In this document: piece after piece, positions 9,882 through 41,769 of the stretch
Numbering within the stretch: the first letter of the stretch is position 1
Layout: each line of letters opens with the position of its first letter
Program-made: the position numbers and the translations under genes
Notes under the pieces: generated by a model
What the model saw: only the letters and a program-made list of their open reading frames with translations
Told to the model about the DNA's origin: nothing
Databases searched by the model: none
From: an uncultured Rhodothermales bacterium
Lineage (GTDB): Bacteria; Bacteroidota; Rhodothermia; Rhodothermales; JANQRZ01
NCBI GenBank assembly: GCA_964438105.1
Contig: CAYTJT010000003.1
Span: forward strand, 1-48,377
Direction: 5' to 3'
DNA length: 48,377 bases

Positions 9882-10406
9882 ATGGCTCAGAGCTTTCAAC
9901 GCGAAAAACCGCCCGCCCGCGTCAACCTATTTCTCGAGGTGGCCAAAGGCGATGCGCAGGAGAAGATCGAGCTCCCCATGCGCCTCATGATCCTCGGCGA
10001 TTACAAGGGGCGCCCCGACGACACCCCGCTCGCCGAGCGCGAGTTGATCAACCTCAACAAGGACAACTTCGAGCAGGTGCTGAAGTCGATGGACGCCAAG
10101 CTCGAGTACACCGTGCAGGACACGCTCAAGGGCGGCGACGAAGAGATGAAGGTCGAGATCGACATCGACTCGATGGACTCGTTCAACCCCGAGGAGGTGG
10201 CGAAGCAGGTGCCCCAACTCAACCGCATGCTCGCGATGCGGAACCTGCTGCAGGACCTCCGCAACCGCGTCGTCTCCGCCAACGACTTCCGCAAGCAGCT
10301 CGAGCAGATCGTCAAGGACGAGGGCGCGCTCGAGAAGCTCGCCGCCGAGCTCGACCAGTTCGTGCCGAAGGAGCAGGAAGGCTCCGGCGACGAAGAGGGA
10401 AGCTGA
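9882..10406 (+). CDS. tssB: T6SS sheath small subunit TssB (VipA)
   Basis: PARVNLFLEV...ELPMRLMILGDYKG...SMDSFNPEEVAKQVPQLNRMLAMRNLL matches the TssB/VipA pattern. 174 aa. Confidence 0.9.
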   Translation: MAQSFQREKPPARVNLFLEVAKGDAQEKIELPMRLMILGDYKGRPDDTPLAERELINLNKDNFEQVLKSMDAKLEYTVQDTLKGGDEEMKVEIDIDSMDSFNPEEVAKQVPQLNRMLAMRNLLQDLRNRVVSANDFRKQLEQIVKDEGALEKLAAELDQFVPKEQEGSGDEEGS

Positions 10407-10468: not shown

Positions 10469-12001
10469 ATGGCTGAAGCTCAACAAGAAGGCGCCGCCGC
10501 CGCAGCGGCTACCACCGAAGACAAGGGGAGCATCCTCGATTCCATCTTTGCGCAGGTCGCCGTAAGCGCTCCCGAAGGGCAGGTCAACGTCGGCGAGTTC
10601 GACGACGTGAACGCGAACGCGGACAAGCCGCGCGGGGCCGTCGTCGCCGCCGCGCTCCGCGTCTTCGTCGACGCCGTCCACGACCTCGAAGGGCCCGTCC
10701 AGAAGGTCGATAAGGAGCTCATCGACTCGATGGTGGCGCAGCTCGACCACAAGCTCTCGCAGCAGCTCGACGCCATCATGCACCACGACGCGTTCCAAGA
10801 GATGGAGTCCTCGTGGCGGAGCCTGAAGTTCCTGGTGGACCGGACGGACTTCCGGAAGAACGTCAAGATCGAGATGATCAACTGCTCGAAGGAGGACCTG
10901 TTGGAGTCCTTCGAGGACGCCCCCGAGCTCACGCAGTCGGCGCTCTACCGGCACATCTACACGAACGCCTACGACCAGCCGGGCGCCGACCCCTACAGCG
11001 CGATCGTCACGAACTACGAGTTCAAGAACACGGCGCAGGACATCGCGCTCATGCAGCAGGCCTCGAAGGTGGCCGCCGCGGCGCTCTGCCCGTTCGTGGC
11101 GTCCATCGGGCACGAGTTCTTCGGGAAGGAGTCGATGGCGGAGTTCAAGAAGATCCCCGACATCTCGGCTCACATGGAGACGGTGGACTTCGTGAAGTGG
11201 AACGCGTTCCGCGAGAGCCCCGACGCCCGCTACATGGCGCTGACGTTCCCGCGCTTCATGCTCCGCCTCCCCTACGGCGAGGACACCGTCCCGGTCAAGA
11301 ACTTCAACTACAACGAGGAGGTCACCGGCGAGGACCACGACAAATACCTCTGGGGGAACGCCTCGTTCGCCTTCGCCTCGAACATGGTGCAGGCCTACGT
11401 CCGCGACGGCTGGAGCGTGCAGATCCGCGGGCCGCAGTCGGGCGGCAAAGTCGCCGACCTCCCCGTCCACCTCTACGACGTGGGCAAGGGGAAGCAGATG
11501 AAGATCCCCACCGAGGTGCCGATCTCGGAGACGCTCGAGTTCGAGTGCTCGAACCTCGGCTTCGTCCCGCTCTCGATCTACGAGGGGCGCGACTTCGCCT
11601 GCTTCTTCTCGGCCAACACCGCGCAGTCGCCGACGATCTACGACGACCCCGAGGCGACGGCCAACAGCCGCATCAACGCGCGGCTGCCCTACGTCATGCT
11701 CGGCTCCCGCATCGCCCACTACCTCAAGGTGCTCCAGCGCGAGAACATCGGCGCGACGAAGGACGCCACGAAGATCGAGGCCGAGCTGAACAAGTGGCTC
11801 GGCGGGCTCGTCACGAAGATGCCGAACCCGAGCGAGTCGATGATCGCCAAGTATCCGCTGCGGAGCGGGCAGGTGAAGGTGCACGACCTCGACGACAACC
11901 CCGGCTTCTACCGCGTCGAGATGGCGATCATGCCGCACTTCCAGATCGAGGGGATGGACATCAACCTCTCGATGGTGAGCAAGATGCCGAAGGCGTCGTA
12001 A
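10469..12001 (+). CDS. tssC: T6SS sheath large subunit TssC (VipB)
   Basis: 510 aa. Motifs HHDAFQEMESSWRSLKFLVDR, LTFPRFMLRLPYG, GFVPLS and C-terminal FYRVEMAIMPHFQIEG are typical VipB/TssC. Confidence 0.95.
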   Translation: MAEAQQEGAAAAAATTEDKGSILDSIFAQVAVSAPEGQVNVGEFDDVNANADKPRGAVVAAALRVFVDAVHDLEGPVQKVDKELIDSMVAQLDHKLSQQLDAIMHHDAFQEMESSWRSLKFLVDRTDFRKNVKIEMINCSKEDLLESFEDAPELTQSALYRHIYTNAYDQPGADPYSAIVTNYEFKNTAQDIALMQQASKVAAAALCPFVASIGHEFFGKESMAEFKKIPDISAHMETVDFVKWNAFRESPDARYMALTFPRFMLRLPYGEDTVPVKNFNYNEEVTGEDHDKYLWGNASFAFASNMVQAYVRDGWSVQIRGPQSGGKVADLPVHLYDVGKGKQMKIPTEVPISETLEFECSNLGFVPLSIYEGRDFACFFSANTAQSPTIYDDPEATANSRINARLPYVMLGSRIAHYLKVLQRENIGATKDATKIEAELNKWLGGLVTKMPNPSESMIAKYPLRSGQVKVHDLDDNPGFYRVEMAIMPHFQIEGMDINLSMVSKMPKAS

Positions 12002-12635: not shown

Positions 12636-12741
12636 CGAGCCCCGCGCACGATCGGAAGCCGCCCCGTCCCTGGCCGTCGCTCGGCCGAGAGGGCCGGGCG
12701 GCTTCCGCGCTCTACCCTGGTGAGCCAACGACACCCTGCAG

Positions 12742-13161: not shown

Positions 13162-13259
13162 AGCCTCGACGCACGGTTACGTTGGAGTAGAGAGGGGGCA
13201 CACAGAGAGCAGAAGACGTAGGGCAGTGACCGAGACGAACGACACTACACGCAGCCGGG

Positions 13260-16102: not shown

Positions 16103-18916
16103 ATGATCTCGAAAGACCTGAAGAAGCTCCTCCAGAAGCTCAACGGCACCATGACGCGCGCGCTCGAAGCGGCGGCCGGCTTCAGCATCGCCCGCGGGCA
16201 CTACGAGGTCACGACGGAGCACCTCCTCGCCAAGCTGCTCGAAGCCGGCGACGGCGACCTCCCCCGCATCCTCGACCGCTTCGACGTCGACAACGGGAAG
16301 GTGTGGGAAGCCCTCATGAACCGGCTCGAAGGGTTCAAGACGGGCAACACCGGGCGCCCGGCGTTCTCGCCCCTCATGCTCGACCTCGTCGAGAGGGCGT
16401 GGGTGGCGGGCTCGGTCCACCACGGCGCGACGGAACTCCGCTCGGGCTTCCTGCTCGAAGCGCTCCTCGAGGCCGAGGGGCTGCGGATGAGCGAGGTGCT
16501 CGACGCGCTCCAGCCTGTCAAGACCGAGGCGCTGCGCGAGGACTTCTACGAGATCGTCGCCGGCTCCGCCGAGAACCAGGCGTCCCGCCGCGCGGGCGGG
16601 CCGCGGGCCTCGGGCGCGCCGCCGCGCGAGGGCGAGACCGCGCTCGACCTCTACACCGAGAACATCACGCAGAAGGCGCGCGACGGCGGGATCGACCCCG
16701 TGTTCGCGCGCGACACCGAGATCCGGCAGATGATCGACGTGCTCAGCCGGCGGCGGAAGAACAACCCGATCCTCGTCGGCGAGGCCGGCGTCGGGAAGTC
16801 GGCGGTGCTCGAAGGGTTCGCGCTCCGCCTCGCCGAGGGCGACGTGCCGGACAGCCTCAAAGAGGTCGAGATCGTCGCCCTCGACCTCGGGCTGCTCCAG
16901 GCCGGCGCCGGGGTGAAGGGCGAGTTCGAGAACCGGCTGAAGTCGGTGATCCAGGAGGTCAAAGAGGCGGCGAAGCCGACGATCCTCTTCATCGACGAGG
17001 CGCACACGCTCATCGGCGCGGGCGGCGCCGCGGGCACGGCCGACGCCGCGAACCTCCTCAAGCCCGCGCTCGCGCGCGGCGAGCTCCGCACGGTCGCCGC
17101 GACGACGTGGAGCGAGTACAAAAAGTACATCGAGAAGGACCCCGCGCTCGAGCGCCGCTTCCAGATGATCAAGGTCGACGAGCCCTCCGTCGACGACGCG
17201 GCGATCATGATGCGCGGCATCAAGGCGAAGTACGAGGACCACCACGACGTGCAGATCACCGACGCCGCCGCCCACGCCGCCGCCTCGCTCTCCGAGCGCT
17301 ACATCACCGGCCGCCACCTCCCCGACAAGGCCGTCGACCTGATGGACACGGCCTCGGCGCGCGTCAAGATGAGCCAGTCCTCGAAGCCCGGCGCCGTCGA
17401 CGACGTCGAGCGCCGCCTGCTCAACCTCGCCATCACCGCCACCGCGCTCCAGCGCGACCTCGAGACCGGCCTCAACGACGACCAGGACACGCTCGACGCG
17501 CTCGAGATCGAACGCGGCGACCTCGTCGCCGCGCGCGACGCCCTCCTCGAACGGTGGGAAAAAGAGCGCGACCTCGTCAAGCAGATCGAAGGCGTCCGCC
17601 GCCGGATCATGGAGAACGTCGGCGGCGACGGCGCCCCGGCCGACCACGGCGACCTCCGCGACGACCTCAACCGGCTGAAAGACGAGCTCGCCGAGATGCA
17701 GAAGGACGACGCGCTCGTGCACGCCGTCGTCAACGAGCACGTCGTCGCGCAGATCATCGCCGACTGGACGGGCATCCCCGTGGGCAACATGGAGCAGGAC
17801 GAGGCGCAGATGCTCCTCGACCTCGAAGACCGCCTCCGCACCAACATCAAGGGCCAGAACGAAGCGCTCGACCAGATCGCCGACTCGATCCGCACGGCCA
17901 AGGCGGGCATGGGCAACCCCGACGCGCCGATCGCCGTGTTCCTCCTCGTGGGCCCGAGCGGGACGGGGAAGACCGAGACGGCGAAGCAGCTAGCCGAGCT
18001 GATGTTCGGCGGCGAGCGCTTCCTCATCACCATCAACATGAGCGAGTACCAGGAGGCCCACACCGTCTCCTCGCTCAAGGGCTCGCCGCCCGGCTACGTC
18101 GGCTACGGCGAGGGCGGCGTGCTCACCGAGGCCGTCCGCCAGCGGCCGTACTCCGTCGTCCTCCTCGACGAGACGGAGAAGGCGCACCTCGACGTCATGG
18201 AGCTGTTCTACCAGGTGCTCGACAGCGGCTTCATGCGCGACGGCGAGGGCCGCGAGATCAACTTCAAGAACACCATCATCCTGATGACCTCCAACATCGG
18301 GAGCGAGACCGTCGTCGAGCTCGCGGCGCAGAAGGAGCGGCCCGACGCCGACACGCTCCGCGCGGCGATCCACCCCCAACTCGTCGGGCACTTCCAGGCC
18401 GCGCTCCTCGCGCGGATGAAAGTCGTCCCGTTCTTCCCGCTCGATAAGGAAGCGATCTCGAAGATCACCCGGCTCAAGCTGGACAAGATCGGCCGGCGGC
18501 TCCGCGCCACGCACGGGATGGCCTTCGCCTACGGCGACGAGGTCGTCGACCGCATCGCCGAGCGCTGCACGCAGGTGGACAGCGGCGCCCGCAACATCGA
18601 CTTCATCATCGACCGAACGCTGCTCCCCGAGGCCTCGCGCGCGCTCCTCGCGCAGATGGCCGACGAGCAGGTGCCCGCCCGCCTCGAACTCGGCATCACC
18701 GAGCGCGGCGACTTCACCTACACCTTCGACGGCGTCCGCTACGGCGGCGACGGCGACGGCTCAGAAGAGGAGCCGGAGGGCGACGGGCCGGAGGCCGCGA
18801 TCGCGGAAGACCTCGTGCCGGACGGCGAGGCCGACGCCGCCGTATCGCCCTCGGCGGGCGACGGCGAGGTCGGGGAGGCCGGCGAGCCGGAGCGCCCCGA
18901 GGCCCCCGCCGAATAG
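16103..18916 (+). CDS. clpV: T6SS AAA+ sheath-recycling ATPase ClpV (TssH)
   Basis: Clp N-domain. Two AAA modules: Walker A GEAGVGKSA with Walker B ILFIDEAH, and GPSGTGKTE with VVLLDETEKAH. 937 aa. About 70 aa of acidic low-complexity C-terminal tail. Confidence 0.95.
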   Translation: MISKDLKKLLQKLNGTMTRALEAAAGFSIARGHYEVTTEHLLAKLLEAGDGDLPRILDRFDVDNGKVWEALMNRLEGFKTGNTGRPAFSPLMLDLVERAWVAGSVHHGATELRSGFLLEALLEAEGLRMSEVLDALQPVKTEALREDFYEIVAGSAENQASRRAGGPRASGAPPREGETALDLYTENITQKARDGGIDPVFARDTEIRQMIDVLSRRRKNNPILVGEAGVGKSAVLEGFALRLAEGDVPDSLKEVEIVALDLGLLQAGAGVKGEFENRLKSVIQEVKEAAKPTILFIDEAHTLIGAGGAAGTADAANLLKPALARGELRTVAATTWSEYKKYIEKDPALERRFQMIKVDEPSVDDAAIMMRGIKAKYEDHHDVQITDAAAHAAASLSERYITGRHLPDKAVDLMDTASARVKMSQSSKPGAVDDVERRLLNLAITATALQRDLETGLNDDQDTLDALEIERGDLVAARDALLERWEKERDLVKQIEGVRRRIMENVGGDGAPADHGDLRDDLNRLKDELAEMQKDDALVHAVVNEHVVAQIIADWTGIPVGNMEQDEAQMLLDLEDRLRTNIKGQNEALDQIADSIRTAKAGMGNPDAPIAVFLLVGPSGTGKTETAKQLAELMFGGERFLITINMSEYQEAHTVSSLKGSPPGYVGYGEGGVLTEAVRQRPYSVVLLDETEKAHLDVMELFYQVLDSGFMRDGEGREINFKNTIILMTSNIGSETVVELAAQKERPDADTLRAAIHPQLVGHFQAALLARMKVVPFFPLDKEAISKITRLKLDKIGRRLRATHGMAFAYGDEVVDRIAERCTQVDSGARNIDFIIDRTLLPEASRALLAQMADEQVPARLELGITERGDFTYTFDGVRYGGDGDGSEEEPEGDGPEAAIAEDLVPDGEADAAVSPSAGDGEVGEAGEPERPEAPAE

Positions 18917-25381: not shown

Positions 25382-26428
25382 ATGGAAACCGCCTCCCTCG
25401 ACACCGATCGGCTTCGACCCGGGGCCGACCTCCGCGGGGCCGACCTCCGGGGCACTCCCCTCCAAGGGGCTAACCTGGAGGGGGCCGACCTCGCTGGAGC
25501 GGATCTCCGCGGCGTCGCCTTCGAGAAGACCCGAATGGCAGGGGTCGACTTCACGGGGGCCGACCTCCGGGGGGCCCGCCTCGCGAATGCCGCGCTGCCT
25601 CGCGCGGTGTTCGCGAGGGCGGACCTGACGGACGCGACGTTCGAGCGGTGCCTGCTCGACGACGCGTCATTCGCGAGCGCCCAGCTCGGCGGGGCCACCT
25701 TCGCGTCGTGCCTCCTCAGCCGGGGGGGCTTCCGCGGGGCCTCGCTCCGAGGCTGTGTCATCGACGCCTCGATCGCAGAAGCGGCGCAGTTCGAGGGGTG
25801 CGATTTGGAGGGGGCGGACCTCAAGGCCACCCTCTTCGCCAACGCCAGCTTCGCCGGGGCCCGGCTCGTCAGCGCGAACCTCGAGCAGGCCCTCCTCACC
25901 GACGCCGACCTCGCCGGGGCGGACTTCACCGATGCCGTGCTCTCCGGCGCCATCCTCGAGAGGGCAAGCGCACCGGGCGCCGTTTTCCGCGGCGCGTTTC
26001 TCGTAGCGACCTTCGCCCGGCGGGCGGACCTCTCGGGGTGCGACTTCTCCGGGGCGAAGCTCTCCGTCGGCACGTTCACGCGGGCCACGCTCGCACGGTC
26101 GACGTTCTTCCACTCGACGGCCGAGAACGCCGTCTTCGAGTACGCCGATCTGCGTGGGGCCAAGCTGAGCCAGTCGTCGTTCAACTTCTCTAACTTCGTG
26201 GGGGCCGAACTCGCCGGGGCGCAGGCAGGGGCGTGCAGCTTCTTCGGCGCCGACTTCTTCTGGGCCTCGGTCGGCGAGTTCGGGCGGGCGCAGTGCGACC
26301 TCGAGTCGGCGCGGATGCCGGAGCCGGTCACGCCGGCCGCCGGGCCCGGCTCCACGCCTCCGCCGGTTCGGCCGGTGCCGCTCTACCGGCAGCCCGCTTC
26401 CGCCGTCGAAACCCGCCCGGGCTCATGA
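25382..26428 (+). CDS. Pentapeptide-repeat protein
   Basis: Almost the entire 348 aa consists of A(D/N)LxG-type pentapeptides (GADLRGADLRGTPLQGANLEGADLAGADLRG...). Pro-rich C-terminal tail. Start is 3 nt after the Rhs stop. Confidence 0.9.
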   Translation: METASLDTDRLRPGADLRGADLRGTPLQGANLEGADLAGADLRGVAFEKTRMAGVDFTGADLRGARLANAALPRAVFARADLTDATFERCLLDDASFASAQLGGATFASCLLSRGGFRGASLRGCVIDASIAEAAQFEGCDLEGADLKATLFANASFAGARLVSANLEQALLTDADLAGADFTDAVLSGAILERASAPGAVFRGAFLVATFARRADLSGCDFSGAKLSVGTFTRATLARSTFFHSTAENAVFEYADLRGAKLSQSSFNFSNFVGAELAGAQAGACSFFGADFFWASVGEFGRAQCDLESARMPEPVTPAAGPGSTPPPVRPVPLYRQPASAVETRPGS

Positions 26429-27480
26429 ACGTCGTCAACGACACACCCTTCGTGGACGGCCTCGCGCTGGGGATGGGGCCGGACCGCCGGTCCTGTCTCG
26501 CCCCCATCCTCAAAGCGACGTTCCGCATGCCCGGCGGCGCCGACGGCGCGCCCGCGCCGGTCGCCGACGAGCAGCTCCCGATCACGGCCGACGACGAGTT
26601 CTACAAAGGCGATGTCACCGGCAGCATCCGGCTCGAAAGCGACGCCGTCCCGTTCAAGCCCCGCGCCGACGTCGTGCTCGTGGGGCGGGCGTACGCGCCG
26701 GGCGGCAAGCCCGTGCCCGTGCTCGACGCCGGGCTCCGCGTCGGGCGGGCGCAGCAGGCCGTCCGCGTCTTCGGCGATCGGCGGTGGGTCTTCCCGACGC
26801 GGCTCGTCCTCGTGCCGGTCGTGTCCGACCCGGAGCCGTTCACCGAGATGCCGCTCGTCTACGAGCGCGCCTTCGGCGGGTTCGACCACAAGGGGCGGGC
26901 GTGGTGCGCGCAGAACCACGTCGGGCGCGGCTTCATCGGGAAGAAGACGCGCGAGTCGGTGGACGGCAAGCCGCTCCCGAACCTCGAGGACCCCCGCCGC
27001 CCGATCCGCTCGTGGGACGACCAGCCCGCGCCCGTCGGGTTCGGGTTCTACGGCCGGAGCTGGCAGCCGCGCGCCGCGCTCACGGGCCGCGCGGTGGACG
27101 ATCTCGACGCCGAGTTCGGCCTGCCCGCTGACTTCGACTTCGGCTTTTACAACGGGGCGCATCCCGCCCTCCAGGTCCCCGGCTACCTCGCCGGGAACGA
27201 GGAGGTCGAGCTTCGGCACCTCACGCCCGACGGCTACCGACGCTTCCGGCTGCCCGGTCTCCGGCCCCGGGTCACCCTCCGGCTCTACGACGGCGCGCCC
27301 GACCCGGACCCCGCCGCCCCCGACGAGCGCCCGGCGAGCGCACACCCGGTCGCCGTTCACCTCGATACCCTCGTGCTCTTCCCCGACGACGGCGTGCTCA
27401 CCGCCGTGTGGCGCGGGCACCACCCGCTCCCCGGCCTCGCCCTCGACACGGTCGCGGGCATCGACTACGCACTCACCTAA
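26425..27480 (+). CDS. DUF2169-family T6SS adaptor-like protein
   Basis: Start is an internal ATG of track ORF 26233..27480 and overlaps the upstream stop as ATGA. MNVVNDTPF...ILKATFRM...DAVPFKPRADVVLVGRAYAPGGKP...VRVFGDRRW matches the DUF2169 pattern as I recall it. Confidence 0.75.
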   Translation: MNVVNDTPFVDGLALGMGPDRRSCLAPILKATFRMPGGADGAPAPVADEQLPITADDEFYKGDVTGSIRLESDAVPFKPRADVVLVGRAYAPGGKPVPVLDAGLRVGRAQQAVRVFGDRRWVFPTRLVLVPVVSDPEPFTEMPLVYERAFGGFDHKGRAWCAQNHVGRGFIGKKTRESVDGKPLPNLEDPRRPIRSWDDQPAPVGFGFYGRSWQPRAALTGRAVDDLDAEFGLPADFDFGFYNGAHPALQVPGYLAGNEEVELRHLTPDGYRRFRLPGLRPRVTLRLYDGAPDPDPAAPDERPASAHPVAVHLDTLVLFPDDGVLTAVWRGHHPLPGLALDTVAGIDYALT

Positions 27481-27492
27481 TTCCTGACCGCC

Positions 27493-29316
27493 ATGAGCGA
27501 CGTGCACAAAAACGTTGGCCTCCACATCACCTCCGACCCCGATACGACCTCGGTCACGCAGCCCGGCCGGGGCGCCCAGCGTCGAGCGGCGCCGATGCCG
27601 CTGCGCCTCCTGCTCGTCGCCGACCTCGCGCCGCAGCTGCGCCCCACGCGCACCGAAGAGCGCGTGCGCCGCGTGGACGCCAACAGCTTCGCGGAGTTGA
27701 TGGGGGACTGGCAGCCCGCGCTCCGCCTCGACGTGGAGAACCGGCTGAGCGCGCAGCCGCAGTCGCTGGAGATCGGGCTGCGCTTCACCTCGCTGAAGGA
27801 CTTCGCGCCCGCCGCGATCGCGCGACAGGTCCCGGCGCTCGCGCGCCTGCTCGCGATCCGCACCGAGGTCCACGGCGTCCGCACGAAAGGGACCGACCGC
27901 GAGACGTTCCGCGACCGCCTCGGCGAGGCCGGGGTCGACGCGGCCTCGGCCGACGGGCTCTACGGCCAACTGACCGTCGAGCCGCCGAAGCCGAAGCCCG
28001 CGCCGAAGCCTCAAGAGGACGACGCCATCGACCGGCTGATGGGGATGGTGGATGCGGGCGACGGAGCGAGTGACGAGCCGCCGCGCACCGCCGGCGACGC
28101 CCTCGCCGAAGCTGTTTCGGACGGCGCGCCACGGATCGCCACGTCGGCGGCCGACGAGATCCTGGAAGACTTCGACCGGAAGCTCGGCGGCCAGCTCCGC
28201 GCGATCCTCGAGCACCCGGACCTGCGCCGGCTCGAAGCGGCGTGGCGTGGGCTGAGGCTGCTCGTGGACCGCCTCCCGTTCCGCGAGGGCGTTCAGCTCG
28301 ACGTGCTCCCCGCGCGGCGCGACAGCCTCAGCGAGACGATCTATCACCAGGTGCTCATCCCCGAGCACGAGGCCGACGGAGCGGGCGACCCGCTCGCGGC
28401 CGTGATCCTCGGCTTCGCCTTCGACAACGGCCAGGCCGACGTCGAGTTGCTCGGGGATATCGCCGAGACGGGGGCGAGCCTGCAGGTCCCGTTCATCGCC
28501 TCGGCGAGCCCGACCTTCTTCGGCTTCGAGTCGGCCGAATCGATCGAGGCGCTGCCGTTCGTGCCGCAGCACGTCCAGGGGCCGGAGTACATCCATTGGA
28601 ATAAGCTGCGCGAGCGGGAAGACGCGCGGCACGTCGTGCTCGCCTTCCCGCCGTTTCTGCTGCGGGCGCCCTACGGCCGGGAGCATCCGTCGAAAGAGGT
28701 GCCGGTGGACGAGGAGGGGTTCCTGTGGGGCGGGGGAGCGCTGGCCGTCGCCCTCGGCATCGGGGACTCGTTTGCGGAGACCGGCTGGCCGACGCACCCC
28801 GCCGGGCGCCGCGTCGGGGACCTCCCGATCCGCGCGACGGAGCGAGGGCAGACGCCGCTGGCCGTTCTGCTGCCCGAGGCGAAAGCGGCGGAGCTGGCCG
28901 ACGTCGGCTTCGTCCCCCTCACCGGCGCGGCTGACCGCGACTGGGTGCAGGTCGCGCGGACGCCCACGCTGGCACGCCCCCAGACCTTCGACGACGCTAC
29001 GAAAACGGCGCACGCGGCGGCGCACGCGACGCTGCCCTGCGGGCTGTTCACGGCCCGCGCGGCCCACCGTATCCTGAAGCTGCCCGCCGAGTTGGACGCC
29101 GAGGCGCCGCTGGAGGCGAAACGGGAAGCCATCGTGAACCGCCTCCGTACGTTCCTGGGGGGGGACCTCGCGGCCGACGCCGTGACGGCGGACCCGGTCC
29201 CGGACGCCGAGGTCGAGGGGCACGACCTGCTAGCCGTCCGTCTTCAGCCGCCCCGGCACGTGCTCGACACGCCGGTGCATCTCGCTATCGGGTTGCCGGT
29301 GCCCCGGGGGGCGTGA
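27493..29316 (+). CDS. Fused TssB-like/TssC-like sheath paralog (single 607-aa polypeptide)
   Basis: Residues about 34-125 align with TssB at 9882..10406: PMPLRLLLVADL vs ELPMRLMILGDY, and FTSLKDFAPAAIARQVPALARLLAIR vs IDSMDSFNPEEVAKQVPQLNRMLAMR. Residues about 216-607 align with TssC residues about 80-510: HPDLRRLEAAWRGLRLLVDR vs HHDAFQEMESSWRSLKFLVDR, LAFPPFLLRAPYG vs LTFPRFMLRLPYG, and VGFVPL vs LGFVPL. A Pro/Ala/Asp-rich linker joins the halves. Confidence 0.75.
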   Translation: MSDVHKNVGLHITSDPDTTSVTQPGRGAQRRAAPMPLRLLLVADLAPQLRPTRTEERVRRVDANSFAELMGDWQPALRLDVENRLSAQPQSLEIGLRFTSLKDFAPAAIARQVPALARLLAIRTEVHGVRTKGTDRETFRDRLGEAGVDAASADGLYGQLTVEPPKPKPAPKPQEDDAIDRLMGMVDAGDGASDEPPRTAGDALAEAVSDGAPRIATSAADEILEDFDRKLGGQLRAILEHPDLRRLEAAWRGLRLLVDRLPFREGVQLDVLPARRDSLSETIYHQVLIPEHEADGAGDPLAAVILGFAFDNGQADVELLGDIAETGASLQVPFIASASPTFFGFESAESIEALPFVPQHVQGPEYIHWNKLREREDARHVVLAFPPFLLRAPYGREHPSKEVPVDEEGFLWGGGALAVALGIGDSFAETGWPTHPAGRRVGDLPIRATERGQTPLAVLLPEAKAAELADVGFVPLTGAADRDWVQVARTPTLARPQTFDDATKTAHAAAHATLPCGLFTARAAHRILKLPAELDAEAPLEAKREAIVNRLRTFLGGDLAADAVTADPVPDAEVEGHDLLAVRLQPPRHVLDTPVHLAIGLPVPRGA

Positions 29317-29490: not shown

Positions 29491-31185
29491 TTGAGCGCTT
29501 CTCACTCATCGTCCTCCCAGCCGGTGGAGGCGCGGCCCGCCGTACGGGCTCGCGTCGAGGGGAGCTCTCTGCCCGGGATGGAGCGGTCGTTCACCGAGCC
29601 GTTCACGATAGGGCGGGGCATGCAGGCGACGCTGCACGTGGATTCCGGACGCGTGAGCCGGATCCACGCGGAGGTGGTCTTCAGCGGCGGCGCGTGGCTG
29701 CTCCGCGACGCCGGGAGCACGAACGGGACCTACCACGACGGCGAGCGGATCGAAACTATACAATTGGAGGGAGACGTCGTGGTGCGGCTCGGGCGGGAAG
29801 GCCCCACCGTGTACCTCAGCGTCGATCCAACGGCCGCAGAGGGGACGGGCCGAGCGACCGCGGTCAGCGAGAACACTCCGTTCCTGAGCAGCTTCAGTGA
29901 GCCCTCCGCGGCCGAGGACGGAGACGCGACGTCGCCGCAGCGGCCGAGCGGGGCGTATCGGGCGGCGGATGGGGAGGTGCCCGGCGGCGCTCCGTCTGTC
30001 CCTCCGGTGCCCCCGAGAGCGGACGCGCCGGACACCCATTCCGTGAGCCAGGTAATCCGGCGTTACTTCAACGCGGAGGACGACGAGGCGGCGGGGGATC
30101 GGACGCGGATGATCCGGCAGGCGTACCAGCAGGTGCAGGCCGAGCAGAAGCGGACGTACGGCGGCATCATCGGCATCGTCGCGCTGCTGCTCGTCGTCGC
30201 GCTGGGCTTCGCCGTCTGGCAGCAGATCCGGGTGGAGCGGCTGGAGCAGACCGCGCAGGGGCTGTTCTACGAGATGAAGGAGCAGGACCTCGCGACGGCC
30301 CAGCTACGCCTCGTGGCCGAGGAGACCGGCAACGCCGACCTCGAAGCCCAGCTCGACGACCTGGAGGAGCGGCGCGTCCGCCAGGCGGCGCTCTACGAGG
30401 GGTACATCGAAGAGCTCGGCGTGTACCGCTCGCTCTCGCCGCAGGAGCGCGAGATCTACCGCGTCGCGCGGATCTTCAACGAGAGCGAGTTCTCGATCCC
30501 GGCGGGGTTCGTGCGCGAGGTGAAGGGGGTCATCAGCGAGTGGCAGAAGTCCAGCCGGTTCGAGAACGCGATCCTGCGCGCCGAGCGCAACGGCTACACC
30601 CCCATCATCGTCCGCACGATGAAGGAGTACGGGCTGCCGCCCGAGTTCTTCTACCTCGCCATGCAGGAGAGCAACTTCAACGAGTGCGCCGTCGGGCCGG
30701 AGACGCGGTGGGGCATCGCCAAGGGGATGTGGCAGTTCATCCCCACGACGGGGCAGGCCTACGGGCTGTCCCCCGGCCCCCGCAGCGACATCCGCGTCTG
30801 CGACGAGCTCGACGACCGCCACGACTTCTCTAAGGCCACCGACGCCGCCGCGCGGTACCTCCTGAACATCTACACCGAGCTGGCGCAGGCCTCGGGCCTG
30901 CTCGTGATGGCGTCCTACAACTGGGGCGAGCACCGCGTCTCCTCCAAACTGGACCGGCTGCCGGAGACCCCGCTCGAACTCGTCCGCCGCGACCTCGAAG
31001 ACATCCCGGCGAACCCGCAGCAGCGCAACTACTGGCGGTTCCTCAACGAGTACCGCGACCGGATGCCGGAGGAGACGAAGAACTACGTCCTCCACATCTT
31101 CGCCGCCGCCGTAATCGGGCAAGACCCCCGCCTCTTCGGGTTCGACTTCGACAACCCGCTGGCGCCCTACCTTCAAGGCCCCTGA
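29491..31185 (+). CDS. FHA domain - TM helix - periplasmic coiled coil - lytic transglycosylase (SLT) fusion protein
   Basis: FHA: FTIGRGMQATLHVDSGRVSRIHAEVVFSGGAWLLRDAGSTNGTYHDGERI. TM: IIGIVALLLVVALGFAVW. SLT: FYLAMQESNFNECAV...GIAKGMWQFIPTTG...MASYNWGE. The track start is TTG at 29491; GTG at 29524 is an alternative. The first ATG (29578) would cut into the FHA fold. Confidence 0.8.
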   Translation: MSASHSSSSQPVEARPAVRARVEGSSLPGMERSFTEPFTIGRGMQATLHVDSGRVSRIHAEVVFSGGAWLLRDAGSTNGTYHDGERIETIQLEGDVVVRLGREGPTVYLSVDPTAAEGTGRATAVSENTPFLSSFSEPSAAEDGDATSPQRPSGAYRAADGEVPGGAPSVPPVPPRADAPDTHSVSQVIRRYFNAEDDEAAGDRTRMIRQAYQQVQAEQKRTYGGIIGIVALLLVVALGFAVWQQIRVERLEQTAQGLFYEMKEQDLATAQLRLVAEETGNADLEAQLDDLEERRVRQAALYEGYIEELGVYRSLSPQEREIYRVARIFNESEFSIPAGFVREVKGVISEWQKSSRFENAILRAERNGYTPIIVRTMKEYGLPPEFFYLAMQESNFNECAVGPETRWGIAKGMWQFIPTTGQAYGLSPGPRSDIRVCDELDDRHDFSKATDAAARYLLNIYTELAQASGLLVMASYNWGEHRVSSKLDRLPETPLELVRRDLEDIPANPQQRNYWRFLNEYRDRMPEETKNYVLHIFAAAVIGQDPRLFGFDFDNPLAPYLQGP

Positions 31186-31235: not shown

Positions 31236-31997
31236 ATGCTGTGGAAGCGCTCCCCCCGCTCTCTGTCCATCCGCTTCGGCGCTAAGTCGGACGTCGGCCA
31301 GGTCCGTTCGGAGAACCAGGACGACTACGGTCGTTTTCCCGAGGTCCGGGCCGAGCGCAACGGGGATCAGGTGTTCATTGTAGCCGACGGGATGGGGGGG
31401 CACGAAGACGGCGGGCAGGCGAGCCGATCGGCTGTGGAGGCGGTTCGCGACACGTACTTCGAGGACCGGGAGGCCCCGGTGGAAGACCGGCTGCGCCGGG
31501 CGGTGCAGGAGGCGAACACCCGGGTCTACGCGTTCGCGCAGAGCGGGGAGATCCCCAAACGGATGGGCACCACGTGCACCGTCCTCGCGGTCGTGCACGG
31601 CGAGGCCTACCTCGCGCACGTTGGGGACAGCCGGGCGTACCGCATCGGGCGGAAGGGCATGACGCAGCTCACGCGGGACCACACCCTCGTCGAAGCCCTG
31701 ATGCGGGAGGGCGTGCTGACGGAGGCGGAGGCGGCGCAGCACCCGCAGCGGCACGCGCTCGTCCGCGCCATCGGCATCCAGCCCGACGTCGACGTCGACG
31801 TCGAGCGGCTCGCGACCCCGCAGTCCGGCGACGCGTTTCTACTGTGCTCCGACGGCCTCTCCCGCGTCAAGGATGCGGAGATCGGCGACATCGTCCGCGC
31901 CGAGACGCCGCAGCAAGCCGCCGAATCGCTCGTGCGCATCGCCAACGAGCGGGGGGGGCACGATAATGTGACGGTACTAGTGGTTAAGATTGAGTAG
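31236..31997 (+). CDS. pppA: PP2C-family Ser/Thr phosphatase (PppA-like)
   Basis: Motifs SDVGQVRSENQD, VADGMGGH, GTTCTV, HVGDSRAY, LLCSDGL, GGHDNVTVLVV. Confidence 0.9.
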   Translation: MLWKRSPRSLSIRFGAKSDVGQVRSENQDDYGRFPEVRAERNGDQVFIVADGMGGHEDGGQASRSAVEAVRDTYFEDREAPVEDRLRRAVQEANTRVYAFAQSGEIPKRMGTTCTVLAVVHGEAYLAHVGDSRAYRIGRKGMTQLTRDHTLVEALMREGVLTEAEAAQHPQRHALVRAIGIQPDVDVDVERLATPQSGDAFLLCSDGLSRVKDAEIGDIVRAETPQQAAESLVRIANERGGHDNVTVLVVKIE

Positions 31998-34045: not shown

Positions 34046-34131
34046 GCGGACAGATCCGCGCTCTGCCTTACTTTGCAGTCCGCCGCAATGCGAAGTCTTT
34101 ACTACTCAACGTCATATCGAGGTGCTCAGTC

Positions 34132-35145
34132 ATGCTCTCAATCTCATTCCGCACGGCATGCGCGGTGATCTGTCTGTTCGCAGTGTCGGTCGGTACGGCG
34201 CAGGCGCAGGACGCCGCGCTCGAGAAGGCCATCGAATCCTACAACTCCGCCGAGTACGACCAGGCGATCAGCAGCTTCGCCGCGCTCGTCGAGGACGCCT
34301 CGACCGATAAGAGCGTGAAGAAGGAAGCGCTGCAGTACCTCGGCCGCGCCTACGTCGCCAAGCAGGCCTACAGCGACGTCCGCACGACGATCGACCGCCT
34401 GCTCGACCTAGAGCCGCCGCTCGTCGAGCTCGACCCGGAGACCGAGCCGCCGGACCTCATGGAGCTCTACTACGAGGTGCGCCGCGACTACACCGGCTAC
34501 GAGGTCGAGCGCCCCGACCCGGGCATGAAGACGCTCGCGGTGATGGATTTCACGAACACCTCGGTGGACGAGAAGGAACGCTTCGACCCGATGCAGCAAG
34601 GCTTCGCCTCGATGATGATCAACTACCTCGAGGGGTCGACCGACCTCAAGGTGATCGAGCGCGAGCGCGTCCAGTGGCTCCTCGACGAGCTGGAGCTCCA
34701 GCGCGACGCCGGTCTCGTGGATCAGGCGTCGGCCGTGCGGACGGGCAAGCTGCTCGGGGCGACGGCCGTGCTCTTCGGCGCCTTCACCGTCCACGGCAAG
34801 CAGATGTGGCTCTCGGCCCGGCTCGTGAAGGTCGAGACCGGGGAGATCCTCCTCGCCGAGCAGATCTTCGGCAACAAGGACGACTTCTTCGAGCTCGTCG
34901 AGGACCTGTCGGACCAGGTCACCGAGGCCATCGGGGTCGAGCTCGCGAGCGCATCGGGCGGCGACGAGCAGTCGCGCTCGCTCGACGCCGTGCTCTCATA
35001 CTCCCAAGGGCTGGGGCTGATCGAGCAGGAGAAGTATCAGGAGGCCTACGACAAGTTCATCGAAGCGCTCGAGTACGACCCCAGTTACGCAGACGCGCGG
35101 CGGAGGGCCGAGAGCCTGAGGCCTCAACTCGCGCAACTGGGCTAA
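34132..35145 (+). CDS. Secreted TPR + CsgG/LpoB-like domain protein (paralog 1)
   Basis: Start is an internal ATG of track ORF 33850..35145, which otherwise overlaps ppkA. Signal peptide MLSISFRTACAVICLFAVSVGTAQA. Core KTLAVMDFTNTS...LKVIERERVQWLLDELELQRDAGLVD...GKLLGATAVLFGAF is the CsgG/LpoB-type fold signature. TPR-like helices flank it on both sides. Confidence 0.6.
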   Translation: MLSISFRTACAVICLFAVSVGTAQAQDAALEKAIESYNSAEYDQAISSFAALVEDASTDKSVKKEALQYLGRAYVAKQAYSDVRTTIDRLLDLEPPLVELDPETEPPDLMELYYEVRRDYTGYEVERPDPGMKTLAVMDFTNTSVDEKERFDPMQQGFASMMINYLEGSTDLKVIERERVQWLLDELELQRDAGLVDQASAVRTGKLLGATAVLFGAFTVHGKQMWLSARLVKVETGEILLAEQIFGNKDDFFELVEDLSDQVTEAIGVELASASGGDEQSRSLDAVLSYSQGLGLIEQEKYQEAYDKFIEALEYDPSYADARRRAESLRPQLAQLG

Positions 35146-35208
35146 CCGCACCTGCAGCCTATCCCGGGCGCTCCGCGCCCGAGAGCCACCCCGTTTCGGA
35201 CTCCGCCT

Positions 35209-36525: not shown

Positions 36526-36548
36526 CTCACTGCCGAACGACGATCCTT

Positions 36549-38240: not shown

Positions 38241-38245
38241 CCCCG

Positions 38246-39940: not shown

Positions 39941-40043
39941 CGGATCGCCGAATGGTGCCGTCGGCGCGGGAGCCGATGGTGTGGTGGTACGTTACAGAGG
40001 GCGCTCTGCTTGGGACGCCCAGACGACTACGTACCCGCCACTT

Positions 40044-41684: not shown

Positions 41685-41704
41685 CTGTGCTAACGGAATG
41701 GAGA

Positions 41705-41769
41705 GCGTGGAAAGGATGGAGGGGGTGGAGGGAGTGCTAGCCCTCTTTCTCCCTCCATTCTCTCCACGC
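41705..41769 (+). other. Long imperfect hairpin (purine-rich arm, then pyrimidine-rich arm) in the intergenic region before kef
   Basis: GCGTGG (41705-10) pairs with CCACGC (41764-69). GGATGGAGG (41714-22) pairs with CCTCCATTC (41752-60, one G-U). GGAGGG (41727-32) pairs with CCCTCT (41741-46). The loop is agtgctag. Confidence 0.4.

What the first reader, a model, noticed from the sequence alone, without database searches (positions are those of the whole stretch)
27493..29316. Single-polypeptide TssB-TssC sheath paralog encoded in the effector/adaptor region
A canonical tssB/tssC pair sits 16 kb upstream. This 607-aa ORF repeats both subunits in one chain.

- Residues about 34-125 align with TssB: PMPLRLLLVADL vs ELPMRLMILGDY, and FTSLKDFAPAAIARQVPALARLLAIR vs IDSMDSFNPEEVAKQVPQLNRMLAMR.
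- Residues about 216-607 align with TssC residues about 80-510: LEAAWRGLRLLVDR vs MESSWRSLKFLVDR, LAFPPFLLRAPYG vs LTFPRFMLRLPYG, and ELADVGFVPL vs ECSNLGFVPL.
- A roughly 90-aa Pro/Ala/Asp-rich linker (VEPPKPKPAPKPQEDD...) joins the halves.
- The linker replaces the first ~80 residues of TssC. In VipB-type sheaths that region carries the ClpV-binding helix and one of the inter-protomer handshake strands.

Such a protomer could plausibly dock onto a sheath ring yet fail to propagate polymerisation or be recognised by ClpV. It might therefore act as a cap or length terminator, a specialised first ring, or the sheath of a separate device. I know of no described T6SS component with this architecture.
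Basis: partly seen in the sequence, partly recalled or inferred. Interest (0 to 1): 0.8.

Follow-up and report, generated by a model that had tools for sequence, protein, structure and literature searches.

The report
Fused TssB–TssC sheath paralogue
This gene encodes a complete type VI secretion sheath building block (small plus large subunit) in one chain. It sits beside the normal two-gene sheath, belongs to a widespread family that I found described in no paper, and probably forms a special, non-standard part of the sheath.

Summary
Window 27493-29316 (+) encodes a 607-aa protein with a TssB/VipA-like half (about residues 25-160) and a TssC/VipB-like half (about 166-607). It lies in a complete T6SS-i cluster that also holds canonical tssB and tssC.

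It is not an artefact. More than 90 full-length homologues share the fusion, in Rhodothermales, Nitrospirota, Acidobacteriota and Desulfobacterales. Databases name them only generically, and my literature searches found no description.

- **Linker.** It does not replace the TssC N-terminus. The whole TssC aligns collinearly, and the linker's most conserved element (aLDRLLGMVD) sits where the ClpV-binding helix lies and has the same register.
- **Neighbours.** The conserved neighbour is not the DUF2169/effector region. It is a downstream FHA-lytic-transglycosylase gene (25 of 26 Rhodothermales-type loci), although that gene usually occurs without the fusion.

What does differ from canonical subunits:
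- The spacing of the N-terminal arm is non-canonical.
- The VipB K223 equivalent is lost.
- Only 5 of 31 canonical invariant residues survive in the inner C-terminal domain.

Best reading (about 0.4): an accessory, sub-stoichiometric sheath protomer that forms a special end ring and does not propagate contraction, while ClpV can probably still recognise it. It is a new variant of a known kind, of moderate to high interest.

The parts
27493..29316 (+). FUS: 607-aa single-chain TssB-TssC sheath paralogue (whole ORF including the stop)
   Evidence: ORF. Pfam VipA + VipB. AF2 pLDDT 85.4. Foldseek to VipB/TssC and TssB. 99 homologues, nearly all with the same fused architecture.
27514..27549 (+). 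Conserved N-terminal arm-like motif V-G-x-x-I-[TS]-S-D-P-D-x-T (residues 8-19); disordered in the monomer model
   Evidence: Conserved in 75-82 of 92 fused sequences (S14, D15, P16, D17, T19). pLDDT below 50. It lies about 10 residues further from the first core strand than the canonical TssB R-V-x-I-x-Y strand, whose spacing is invariant in 68 canonical TssB. That it is the handshake arm is an inference.
27574..27960 (+). TssB/VipA-like domain (residues 28-156)
   Evidence: Pfam PF05591, E 3.4e-23. BLASTP to the cluster's own TssB, E 2e-13. PDB VipA/TssB chains E 1e-24 to 5e-27 with the family profile.
27976..28122 (+). Flexible Pro/Ala/Asp-rich junction (residues 162-210), equivalent to a shortened TssC N-terminal region
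   Evidence: Block-mean pLDDT 39-62; residues 172-177 and 182-210 below 50. Aligned collinearly to TssC 10-85 by hhalign. Flanks are hypervariable in the family.
28021..28053 (+). Conserved helix motif D-A-I-D-R-L-M-G-M-V-D (residues 177-187): candidate ClpV-binding helix
   Evidence: L179 68/92, D180 81/92, R181 73/92, L182 84/92, G184 73/92, M185 76/92, V186 84/92. Conserved in distant fused clades. Aligned to VipB LLDEIMAQTR and to the TssC consensus slLDxLL. Tests on the isolated region are weak: hhalign E 0.002, and 3 of 100 column shuffles reach the score.
28156..28947 (+). TssC/VipB-like N-terminal and middle domains (residues 222-485)
   Evidence: Pfam PF05943, E 1.8e-50. 38 of 77 canonical-invariant positions are kept and 9 are replaced by a different conserved residue. 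The VipB K223 equivalent is H367 and is variable in the family.
28948..29313 (+). Divergent C-terminal inner domain (residues 486-607), homologous to VipB_2 (gp25-like), including the C-terminal strand
   Evidence: No Pfam VipB_2 hit, but aligned end to end by hhalign and modelled at pLDDT 82-96. Only 5 of 31 canonical-invariant positions are kept; K387, K420, R424, K431, W443, Y481 and H490 are lost.
9882..10406 (+). Canonical tssB (presumed partner and bulk sheath small subunit)
   Evidence: Pfam VipA 160 bits; TIGR03358 161.5 bits, above its cut-off.
10469..12001 (+). Canonical tssC (bulk sheath large subunit, with N-terminal helix SILDSIFAQV)
   Evidence: Pfam VipB 398.5 bits + VipB_2 139 bits; TIGR03355 624 bits. 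Sequence.
16103..18916 (+). clpV (sheath-recycling unfoldase; candidate reader of the FUS linker helix)
   Evidence: Pfam Clp_N, AAA, AAA_2, ClpB_D2-small. The interaction with FUS is inferred, not tested.
29491..31185 (+). FHA-TM-SLT protein, the conserved downstream neighbour of FUS
   Evidence: Pfam FHA 39-101 and SLT 375-488. Directly downstream of FUS in 25 of 26 Rhodothermales-type loci and adjacent in Nitrospirae, Desulfobacterales and L088. It is found without FUS in 62 of 79 FHA-SLT loci.

Best explanation
FUS is a complete T6SS sheath protomer (TssB + TssC) made as one chain. It belongs to an old paralogue lineage kept alongside the canonical tssB/tssC pair as an accessory component of one group of T6SS-i clusters.

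**Shown**
- It has the sheath fold.
- It keeps an N-terminal arm-like segment and the C-terminal strand.
- It keeps a strongly conserved helix at the position of the ClpV-binding helix.
- Its N-arm spacing is non-canonical.
- Its inner (tube-facing, handshake) domain has lost most canonical invariant residues.

**Inferred**
- It does not build the bulk of the sheath.
- It co-assembles with TssBC in sub-stoichiometric amounts as a special ring at one end of the sheath, either the baseplate-proximal collar or the distal terminating ring.
- There its altered arms and inner surface contact something other than a standard Hcp/TssBC layer, and the ring does not transmit contraction in the standard way.
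- The exposed internal helix still lets ClpV find and remove it after firing.
- Its usual position directly before an FHA-lytic-transglycosylase membrane protein suggests, but does not prove, that the ring is placed or held at the envelope through that protein.
For: **Fold and homology**

**Distinct, conserved lineage under its own constraints**
- 99 homologues, nearly all with the fused architecture, at 30-87% identity.
- 283 junction-spanning hits with E<=1e-10 among 50%-identity representatives; roughly 100 of the 150 listed are 560-670 aa with one stretch spanning the junction.
- In an NJ tree, all 68 canonical TssC form one clade and the fused forms fall outside it. The canonical set includes those from the same genomes or phyla.
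- Fifteen canonical-invariant positions carry a different but conserved residue in FUS, for example K420 to L (91%) and H490 to P (98%).

**Co-occurrence with canonical tssBC in one cluster**
- Window; L003, L019, L043.

**Not a bulk subunit**
- The canonical TssB arm-to-core spacing is invariant in 68 sequences.
- In FUS it is about 10 aa longer, and in other fused clades about 3-4 aa shorter.
- In V. cholerae, adding 2 or more residues to this linker abolishes contraction. Such subunits co-assemble and are dominant negative (PMC5797969), and an elongated linker reconnects within its own ring (PMC5813253).
- VipB K223, needed for sheath assembly (PMC5797969), is K in the window's TssC but H367 in FUS and variable in the family.
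- Only 5 of 31 invariant residues survive in the inner domain.

**ClpV helix retained**

**Precedent**
- The Afp sheath is polymerised from three paralogues (PMC12961389).

**Evolutionary rate**
- FUS evolves like the neighbouring regulatory genes, not like the cargo. Window vs L006: FUS 67%, FHA-SLT 61%, PP2C 65%, but VgrG 31% and DUF2169 33%.
Against: - There is no direct evidence of incorporation into a sheath. Which end it would occupy is undecided.
- The same divergence of the inner domain and N-arm could instead mean it cannot co-assemble at all.
- Clusters with the same FHA-SLT/PP2C/STK module in Ignavibacteria, Gemmatimonadota and many Acidobacteriota show no FUS within 6 kb. It is therefore dispensable for that cluster type, or encoded elsewhere.
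- An orphan copy occurs away from any T6SS genes in Xanthobacter sediminis.
- Homology of the N-terminal motif to the handshake arm is inferred from position and pattern only.
- Homology of the linker helix to the ClpV helix is weak when the region is tested in isolation.
Confidence: 0.4

Rival explanations
1. FUS is a regulator rather than a stable structural part. It would be a sheath-derived brake or adaptor. It either poisons or caps polymerisation or contraction until ClpV removes it, or it serves as a ClpV-docking and FHA-binding platform that couples the threonine-phosphorylation / FHA-SLT module to sheath assembly.
For: - The ClpV-like helix sits in a flexible, probably always-exposed linker and is more conserved than in canonical TssC.
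- Engineered long-linker VipA subunits co-assemble and block firing dominantly (PMC5797969).
- FUS lies next to FHA-SLT in 25 of 26 Rhodothermales-type loci, and next to it in other arrangements in Nitrospirae (L015/L146), Desulfobacterales (L148, L156) and L088.
- A kinase lies directly upstream in L003 and L007.
- The N-terminal motif carries a conserved Thr (T19, 82/92).
- Sheath phosphoregulation has a precedent: Francisella TssC Y139 (PMC10433429).
Against: - FHA-SLT occurs without FUS in 62 of 79 loci, so the coupling runs one way only.
- In Roseithermus the FUS/FHA-SLT pair has no adjacent kinase or phosphatase.
- The conserved Thr motif is absent from the other fused clades, including those next to FHA-SLT.
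- Retention of the complete fold with both terminal arms over great evolutionary distance argues for lattice contacts rather than a simple binding module.
Confidence: 0.3
2. FUS polymerises on its own into a separate or alternative sheath, as a single-chain sheath protein like phage gp18. It would be used instead of TssBC under some conditions or for another device.
For: - It is a complete protomer with both arms.
- Phage and eCIS sheaths are single-chain proteins, and they match the model weakly (E 1e-7 to 1e-4).
- In Acidobacteriota L032, two fused genes lie in tandem next to tssJKLM with no canonical tssBC within 10 kb.
- Double-protomer fusions exist (P0275, P0285).
Against: - The window has one Hcp, one baseplate gene set and one ClpV.
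- Every well-covered Rhodothermales-type cluster also has canonical tssBC.
- The tube-facing domain has lost most canonical invariants, including three basic residues, and the K223 equivalent is lost.
- The arm spacing is of a kind that blocks contraction in V. cholerae (PMC5797969).
- In L032 the canonical genes may simply lie beyond the fetched 10 kb.
Confidence: 0.1
3. FUS is a decaying or functionless duplicate, or an annotation or assembly artefact that joins tssB and tssC.
For: It scores below the NCBIfam equivalog cut-offs and lacks a Pfam VipB_2 hit.
Against: - More than 90 intact full-length homologues from independent assemblies share the same junction.
- Identity to relatives is 67-87%, comparable to the neighbouring functional genes.
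- Many positions are conserved but differ from canonical.
- Synteny is conserved.
Confidence: 0.03

Closest known systems
Canonical T6SS-i sheath heterodimer TssB/TssC (VipA/VipB; PDB 3J9G, 5MXN, 5URW, 5N8N)
   Same: - Same fold for both halves (target TM 0.69-0.76 to VipB/TssC, 0.63 to TssB).
- Collinear over the full length of both subunits.
- Signature motifs are kept: EAAWRGL, PPFLLRAPYG, LWGG, GFVPL.
- Terminal arm-like segments and a helix at the ClpV-binding position are present.
   Different: - One polypeptide instead of two.
- About 25-30 residues shorter in the TssC N-terminal region.
- N-arm spacing is +10 aa.
- The K223 equivalent is lost.
- Only 49% (middle domains) and 16% (inner domain) of canonical invariant residues are kept.
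- Below the NCBIfam equivalog cut-offs, with no Pfam VipB_2 hit.
- A separate lineage in the tree.
Engineered non-contractile VipA-N2 to N7 long-linker sheath mutants of V. cholerae (PMC5797969, PMC5813253)
   Same: A sheath subunit whose N-terminal linker is longer than the canonical length. Such subunits co-assemble with wild type.
   Different: - Those are laboratory insertions of 2-7 residues in an otherwise canonical subunit.
- FUS is a natural paralogue with about 10 extra residues and many further changes.
- Its effect on contraction is untested.
Minor sheath paralogues of extracellular contractile injection systems (Afp2/Afp3/Afp4; Pvc2/3/4)
   Same: - Several sheath paralogues are encoded in one cluster and built into one sheath (PMC12961389).
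- From my own knowledge of the published Afp and PVC structures, the minor paralogues occupy the baseplate-proximal layers.
   Different: - Only distant structural similarity (E 1e-7 to 1e-6, TM 0.42-0.49).
- Those systems are not recycled by ClpV and have no split TssB/TssC ancestry.
T6SS accessory proteins acting on the sheath ends (TssE/gp25 initiator; TssA cap; TagA, TagB, TagJ)
   Same: Proposed place of action (one end of the sheath; ClpV recruitment in the case of TagJ), and accessory, lineage-restricted distribution (PMC10433429).
   Different: No sequence or fold relationship apart from the shared gp25-like inner domain with TssE. The cluster already encodes TssE (12742-13161), TssA and TagF.

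Membership tests
TssB / VipA small sheath subunit (PF05591, TIGR03358) | Match to the Pfam T6SS_VipA domain above the gathering score | tested here: met
   82.6 bits vs cut-off 24, residues 28-156.
TssB / VipA small sheath subunit (PF05591, TIGR03358) | Equivalog-level match (NCBIfam TIGR03358 cut-off 97.25 bits) | tested here: not met
   81.3 bits. The cluster's own TssB scores 161.5.
TssB / VipA small sheath subunit (PF05591, TIGR03358) | N-terminal R-V-x-I-x-Y strand at a fixed distance from the L-P core motif | tested here: not met
   The spacing is invariant in 68 canonical TssB. FUS has V-G-x-x-I-T-S-D-P-D-x-T about 10 residues further out. Other fused clades are about 3-4 residues shorter.
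TssC / VipB large sheath subunit (PF05943 + PF18945, TIGR03355) | Pfam VipB (N-terminal and middle domain) match | tested here: met
   172.1 bits vs cut-off 27, residues 222-485.
TssC / VipB large sheath subunit (PF05943 + PF18945, TIGR03355) | Pfam VipB_2 (gp25-like C-terminal domain) match | tested here: not met
   No hit at E<=0.01. Homology is recovered only by profile-profile alignment and the fold model. 5 of 31 invariant positions are kept.
TssC / VipB large sheath subunit (PF05943 + PF18945, TIGR03355) | Equivalog-level match (TIGR03355 cut-off 271.5 bits) | tested here: not met
   187.1 bits, covering model positions 44-385 of 473. The cluster's own TssC scores 624.1.
TssC / VipB large sheath subunit (PF05943 + PF18945, TIGR03355) | N-terminal amphipathic helix bound by the ClpV N-domain | tested here: inconclusive
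   A conserved LDRLLGMV motif is collinear with VipB LLDEIMAQT and TssC slLDxLLa. Tests on the isolated region are weak. Binding is not testable here.
T6SS sheath protomer (structural class) | Three-dimensional fold of the VipA/VipB protomer | tested here: met
   AF2 pLDDT 85.4, pTM 0.82. Foldseek E 1.9e-24 to 1.1e-18 to nine T6SS large sheath subunit chains, plus TssB and VipA chains.
T6SS sheath protomer (structural class) | Polymerises around Hcp and contracts | not testable with these tools
   This needs multimer modelling or experiment. Indirect indicators (linker length, K223 equivalent, inner-domain invariants) argue against canonical behaviour.
Phage / eCIS single-chain sheath proteins (gp18, Afp2-4, Pvc2-4) | Closest sequence or structure relatives are phage or eCIS sheaths | tested here: not met
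   These match only at E 1e-7 or weaker and TM 0.25-0.5, far below the T6SS sheath matches. The fusion therefore arose within the T6SS lineage.

The most novel reading that the evidence does not exclude
The fused protomer is a new class of T6SS component: a sheath-derived gate.
- Six copies would form a self-crosslinked, non-contractile collar at one end of the TssBC sheath.
- The collar would permanently display a ClpV-binding helix and be tethered to the envelope through the cytoplasmic FHA domain of the adjacent lytic transglycosylase.
- Assembly, holding or release of the sheath would then be set by this ring and by ClpV or phospho-signalling acting on it.
Probability: 0.15. Interest if true: 0.8.

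Novelty: new variant of a known kind. Interest (0 to 1): 0.55.

Why it matters
**State of the field**
- T6SS sheaths are described as two-protein polymers. The accessory factors known to act at their ends (TssE, TssA, TagA, TagB, TagJ) are unrelated to the sheath subunits.
- How the first ring is seeded, how growth stops, and how contraction is held back and then propagated are still open questions.

**What this protein adds**
- Many bacteria outside the usual model organisms keep an extra, single-chain sheath protomer next to the normal pair.
- Its changes fall on the elements that experiments in V. cholerae tie to assembly and contraction: N-linker length, K223, and the inner domain.
- If it marks one end of the sheath or gates firing, it would give a natural handle on those questions.

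**Practical consequences**
- The family could get its own name and model. It is currently annotated as 'large subunit' or 'sheath domain-containing protein', which can mislead cluster typing and counts of sheath genes.
- Cultured hosts exist for testing: Salinibacter ruber, Rubrivirga marina and Roseithermus sacchariphilus.

Tried and rejected
1. **Artefact or frameshift joining tssB and tssC.** Rejected. The same junction is present in more than 90 independent sequences.

2. **'Linker replaces the ClpV helix.'** Rejected.

3. **Functional tie to DUF2169/PRP/Rhs.** Rejected as a general rule.
   - Upstream genes vary (HEAT_2, immunity genes, a kinase, DcrB, unknowns).
   - VgrG and DUF2169 evolve much faster than FUS.

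4. **Obligate partnership with FHA-SLT.**
   - Tested reciprocally. FUS nearly always has FHA-SLT next to it, but only 17 of 79 FHA-SLT loci have FUS within 6 kb.
   - Ignavibacteria show DUF2169-PRP-FHA-SLT-PP2C-STK with no FUS.
   - I therefore treat it as suggestive only.

5. **A conserved phospho-threonine site common to all FUS next to FHA-SLT.** Not found. The SDPDxT motif is confined to the Rhodothermales-type clade.

6. **Mapping of V. cholerae VipB K223 and D333.**
   - The K223 equivalent is lost in FUS.
   - The D333 equivalent stays acidic in both FUS (E459) and canonical TssC, so that residue tells nothing (PMC5797969).

7. **Stand-alone statistical tests of the linker helix.** Only weakly positive.

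8. **Literature searches** for a fused TssB-TssC, for a Salinibacter or Rhodothermales T6SS, and for sheath-tube contact residues. They found nothing on this protein and no usable residue list for the Hcp-contacting helix.

9. **A genome scan with a 16-sequence N-terminal alignment** failed for lack of a conserved stretch. A 7-sequence version worked.

10. **Terminator and promoter scan around the gene.** No + strand terminator between FUS and FHA-SLT and no sigma-70-like promoter. This is uninformative for this phylum.

11. **First-pass TssE ORF (12720-13190).** This was the wrong frame. TssE is 12742-13161.
Full report
**1. What is in the window**

All genes of interest lie on the + strand and form a complete T6SS-i cluster. 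In order:
- tssJ (147-1118), tssK (1271-2623), tssL (2662-3393), tssM (3447-7073)
- tagF (7114-8082), tssA (8101-9732)
- tssB (9882-10406), tssC (10469-12001), hcp (12165-12635), tssE (12742-13161)
- tssF (13260-15041), tssG (to 16090), clpV (16103-18916), vgrG (18986-22381)
- a DUF6531/RHS-repeat protein (22748-25378), a pentapeptide-repeat protein (25382-26428), DUF2169 (about 26425-27480)
- the finding (27493-29316)
- an FHA-SLT protein (29491-31185), a PP2C phosphatase (31236-31997), a Ser/Thr kinase with PEGA domains (32060-34045)
- CsgG/LpoB-like and TPR proteins, a FlgD_ig/Por_Secre_tail protein and an outer-membrane beta-barrel

Relatives are from Rhodothermales.

**2.

- The 607-aa ORF (called FUS here) matches Pfam T6SS_VipA (residues 28-156, E 3.4e-23) and VipB (222-485, E 1.8e-50).
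- It is 29% identical to the cluster's own TssC (E 7e-58) and 22% identical to its own TssB (E 2e-13).
- An AlphaFold2 model built on 27 homologues is confident (pLDDT 85.4, pTM 0.82). The exceptions are residues 1-32 and about 162-210.
- Foldseek returns T6SS large sheath subunits as the nine best hits (E 1.9e-24 to 1.1e-18, target TM 0.68-0.76). TssB and VipA chains also match.
- Phage and eCIS sheaths follow far behind (E 1e-7 or weaker).
- FUS is clearly divergent. Both NCBIfam equivalog models score below their cut-offs (187 vs 271.5 bits; 81 vs 97 bits) and Pfam VipB_2 does not hit. The canonical genes pass all of these.

**3.

*The junction.*
- A profile of 27 fused homologues aligns collinearly with a profile of 68 canonical TssC, from FUS 166 to 607 against TssC 10 to 510 (hhalign probability 100, E 2e-77).
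- So the TssC N-terminus is shortened, not replaced.
- Inside the otherwise hypervariable junction there is one sharply conserved element, [AS]-L-D-R-L-[LM]-G-M-V-D (FUS 178-187).
- Its conservation in 92 fused sequences: D 81, L 84, G 73, M 76, V 84.
- It persists in the Nitrospirota and Acidobacteriota fused proteins that are only about 30% identical overall.
- HMMER aligns it with 'LLDEIMAQTR' of V. cholerae VipB in the extended-sheath structures.
- Its register L-D-x-L-L-[AG] equals the canonical consensus S-L-L-D-x-L-L-A (window TssC: SILDSIFAQV). That segment is the helix bound by the ClpV N-domain (PMC5048182, PMC10433429).
- Taken alone the short region gives only weak statistics. hmmsearch gives a mean of 1.3 bits against -1.2 for shuffles. 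hhalign gives E 0.002, and 3 of 100 column shuffles do as well.
- The homology therefore rests mainly on collinearity plus conservation.

*The termini.*
- Published structures place the inter-protomer linkers at the TssB N-terminus and the TssC C-terminus. Both reach towards the baseplate (PMC5797969, PMC5813253).
- FUS keeps both ends.
- In 68 canonical TssB, the R-V-x-I-x-Y strand and the L-P core motif are separated by a constant number of residues with no indel.
- FUS has a differently worded, highly conserved segment, V-G-x-x-I-[TS]-S-D-P-D-x-T. It lies about 10 residues further from the equivalent P-L-R core motif.
- The other fused clades have a [KR]-[VI]-[ST]-[FL]-G strand about 3-4 residues closer. 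No fused clade has the canonical spacing.
- In V. cholerae, inserting two or more residues in this linker abolishes contraction. The mutant subunits still co-assemble and are dominant negative (PMC5797969). The elongated linker reconnects to a neighbour in the same ring (PMC5813253).

*Invariant residues.*
- Of the positions at least 90% invariant in canonical TssC, FUS keeps 38 of 77 in the VipB domains.
- It keeps only 5 of 31 in the C-terminal inner domain. K387, K420, R424, K431, W443, Y481 and H490 are lost.
- Fifteen positions carry a different but conserved residue. This is the signature of a paralogue under its own selection, not of decay.
- The equivalent of VipB K223, whose K223A mutation prevents sheath assembly (PMC5797969), is K in the window's TssC. 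It is H367 in FUS and variable in the family.
- The D333 equivalent stays acidic in both, so it tells nothing.

**4. The family**

- A search of 5.8 billion proteins gave 99 homologues, nearly all with the same two-domain architecture at 590-670 aa.
- A second search seeded with distant members added Nitrospirota (Candidatus Manganitrophus), unnamed MAGs and Xanthobacter.
- A query spanning only the junction (FUS 60-300) found 283 representatives of 50%-identity clusters at E<=1e-10. Roughly 100 of the 150 listed are 560-670 aa with a single match across the junction.
- Genome scans place fused genes in several groups:
  - Rhodothermales: Salinibacter, Salinivenus, Rubrivirga, Roseithermus;
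  - Nitrospirae;
  - Holophagae, Thermoanaerobaculaceae and other Acidobacteriota;
  - Desulfobacterales.
- In a neighbour-joining tree of the TssC-homologous core, the 68 canonical TssC form one clade. These come from Proteobacteria, Planctomycetota, Acidobacteriota, Rhodothermales and the window.
- All fused proteins but one (P0092) lie outside that clade. This fits one old fusion or duplication, with the usual long-branch caveat.
- Source annotations are generic ('contractile sheath large subunit', 'sheath domain-containing protein', 'ImpC').
- Full-text searches found no description of such a protein.

**5. Genomic context**

- FUS is directly followed by the FHA-SLT gene in the window and in 24 further distinct Rhodothermales-type loci with downstream sequence.
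- PP2C, the kinase and the CsgG/TPR genes usually come next.
- The one exception is a Salinivenus contig (L010), where FUS ends a differently arranged cluster.
- In Roseithermus the FUS/FHA-SLT pair ends the cluster with no kinase or phosphatase.
- The two genes are also adjacent, in other orders, in three further settings:
  - a Nitrospirae MAG, where FHA-SLT is upstream;
  - L088;
  - Desulfobacterales, where the genes are convergent.
- The gene upstream of FUS varies. It is DUF2169 in the window and at least 8 other loci. Elsewhere it is a HEAT-repeat protein, immunity genes, a kinase or an unknown.
- Orthologue identities show that FUS evolves like the downstream genes (67% vs 56-65% against L006). 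It does not evolve like the cargo region (VgrG 31%, DUF2169 33%).
- The reciprocal test tempers this. Of 79 FHA-SLT loci across many phyla, only 17 have FUS within 6 kb. Ignavibacteria have DUF2169-PRP-FHA-SLT-PP2C-STK with nothing in between.
- FUS is therefore an add-on to this cluster type, not an obligate partner of FHA-SLT.
- Canonical tssB/tssC co-occur with the fused gene in the window, L003, L019 and L043.

**6. Most likely mechanism**

*Shown:*
- a complete, folded sheath protomer in one chain;
- old and conserved, and co-resident with canonical TssBC;
- arms present but non-canonical, and an inner domain that is remodelled;
- a ClpV-type helix retained in a flexible linker.

*Inferred:*
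- FUS does not make the bulk sheath. It joins the TssBC lattice in a few copies at one end.
- There its unusual arms and inner face would meet a non-standard partner: TssE/VgrG at the baseplate, or the TssA cap at the distal end.
- The longer N-linker would favour intra-ring cross-linking, giving a ring that does not pass on contraction in the normal way.
- ClpV could still recognise and recycle it.
- I put this at about 0.4. I cannot decide between the proximal and distal positions.

*Main rival (about 0.3):*
- The same molecule works as a regulator rather than as a stable ring. It would be a natural dominant-negative brake or a ClpV/FHA docking platform tied to the phospho-signalling module.
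- The one-way synteny and the lack of a shared phospho-site weaken this reading.

*Other rivals:*
- An independent homopolymeric sheath is unlikely (about 0.1). There is only one set of Hcp and baseplate genes, and the tube-facing invariants are lost.
- A dead duplicate is effectively excluded.

**7. Comparison and verdict**

- FUS works like, and descends from, TssB+TssC. But it fails several features that define canonical membership: the equivalog scores, the VipB_2 sequence model, the arm spacing and the two-gene architecture.
- Functionally the nearest analogies are the minor sheath paralogues of eCIS (PMC12961389) and the engineered long-linker VipA mutants.
- It is best classed as a new variant of a known kind: a widespread accessory sheath paralogue that I found described in no paper.
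Its specific arguments (loss of the ClpV helix and a handshake strand; an effector-region affiliation) are not supported.

Noticed in passing
window 29491-31185 (+): A single protein combines a cytoplasmic FHA domain (residues 39-101), a hydrophobic segment around residues 225-247 that looks like a transmembrane helix (seen by eye in the translation, not tested with any tool), and a periplasmic SLT lytic-transglycosylase domain (375-488). A review states that lytic transglycosylases are exceptional in T6SS clusters (PMC10433429). Full-length homologues are widespread in Rhodothermales, Ignavibacteria, Gemmatimonadota, Acidobacteriota, Desulfobacterales and Nitrospirae, usually followed by PP2C and a Ser/Thr kinase. 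This looks like an undescribed link between phospho-signalling and cell-wall opening for T6SS.
   Followed up: partly
window 12742-13161 (+): The tssE gene is the 139-aa ATG ORF in this frame (sequence ...SILSNLDRLMNTRQG..., assigned by position and sequence, not confirmed by a profile). The longer overlapping 12720-13190 ORF gave no Pfam hit and is the wrong frame.
   Followed up: partly
proteins P0275 (1127 aa) and P0285 (1054 aa): Metagenomic proteins that contain two complete sheath protomers in one chain (VipA, VipB and VipB_2 matched twice). These are tandem double fusions, or possibly gene-calling read-through.
   Followed up: partly
L032:8133-9854 and L032:9890-11824 (Acidobacteriota MAG): Two fused TssB-TssC genes from different subclades lie in tandem directly after tssJKLM, with no canonical tssB/tssC within the fetched 10 kb. 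The first copy lacks the whole linker region. The canonical genes may lie beyond the fetched DNA.
   Followed up: no
L087:10001-11704 (Xanthobacter sediminis chromosome): An orphan, highly divergent fused sheath-like gene (567 aa) with no T6SS genes within 10 kb. It lies next to a gene for a protein of more than 3,500 aa and a DUF4915 gene.
   Followed up: no
L002:8505-9899 and L086:8426-9661: A HEAT-repeat (HEAT_2) protein lies directly upstream of the fused gene in Rubrivirga marina, and upstream of it, separated by a 79-aa ORF, in Candidatus Manganitrophus noduliformans (different phyla). A NACHT-HEAT protein lies near the fused gene in L005. This may be another recurrent neighbour.
   Followed up: partly
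window 18986-22381 (+): The VgrG is long (1131 aa). Its C-terminal part (residues 1032-1108) weakly matches the Francisella-type TssI model NF041249, far below that model's cut-off (28.3 vs 100 bits), in addition to the usual gp27/gp5 region.
   Followed up: no
window 22748-25378 (+): The DUF6531/RHS-repeat protein is short for an Rhs (876 aa) and shows no recognisable C-terminal toxin or PAAR domain in Pfam. The Rhs-PRP-DUF2169 trio recurs upstream of FUS in several relatives: L008, L009, L089, L090, L103, L105.
   Followed up: no
window 40010-41740 (+): A 576-aa ORF downstream of the cluster has no Pfam family even at E<=1.
   Followed up: no
window 32060-39349 (+): The kinase carries four PEGA domains. 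It is followed by a conserved set of genes: a CsgG/LpoB-like TPR protein, a TPR protein, a FlgD_ig/Por_Secre_tail protein and an outer-membrane beta-barrel. The set is syntenic across Rhodothermales and partly Ignavibacteria. It may be an envelope-sensing module playing the role of TagQRST.
   Followed up: no
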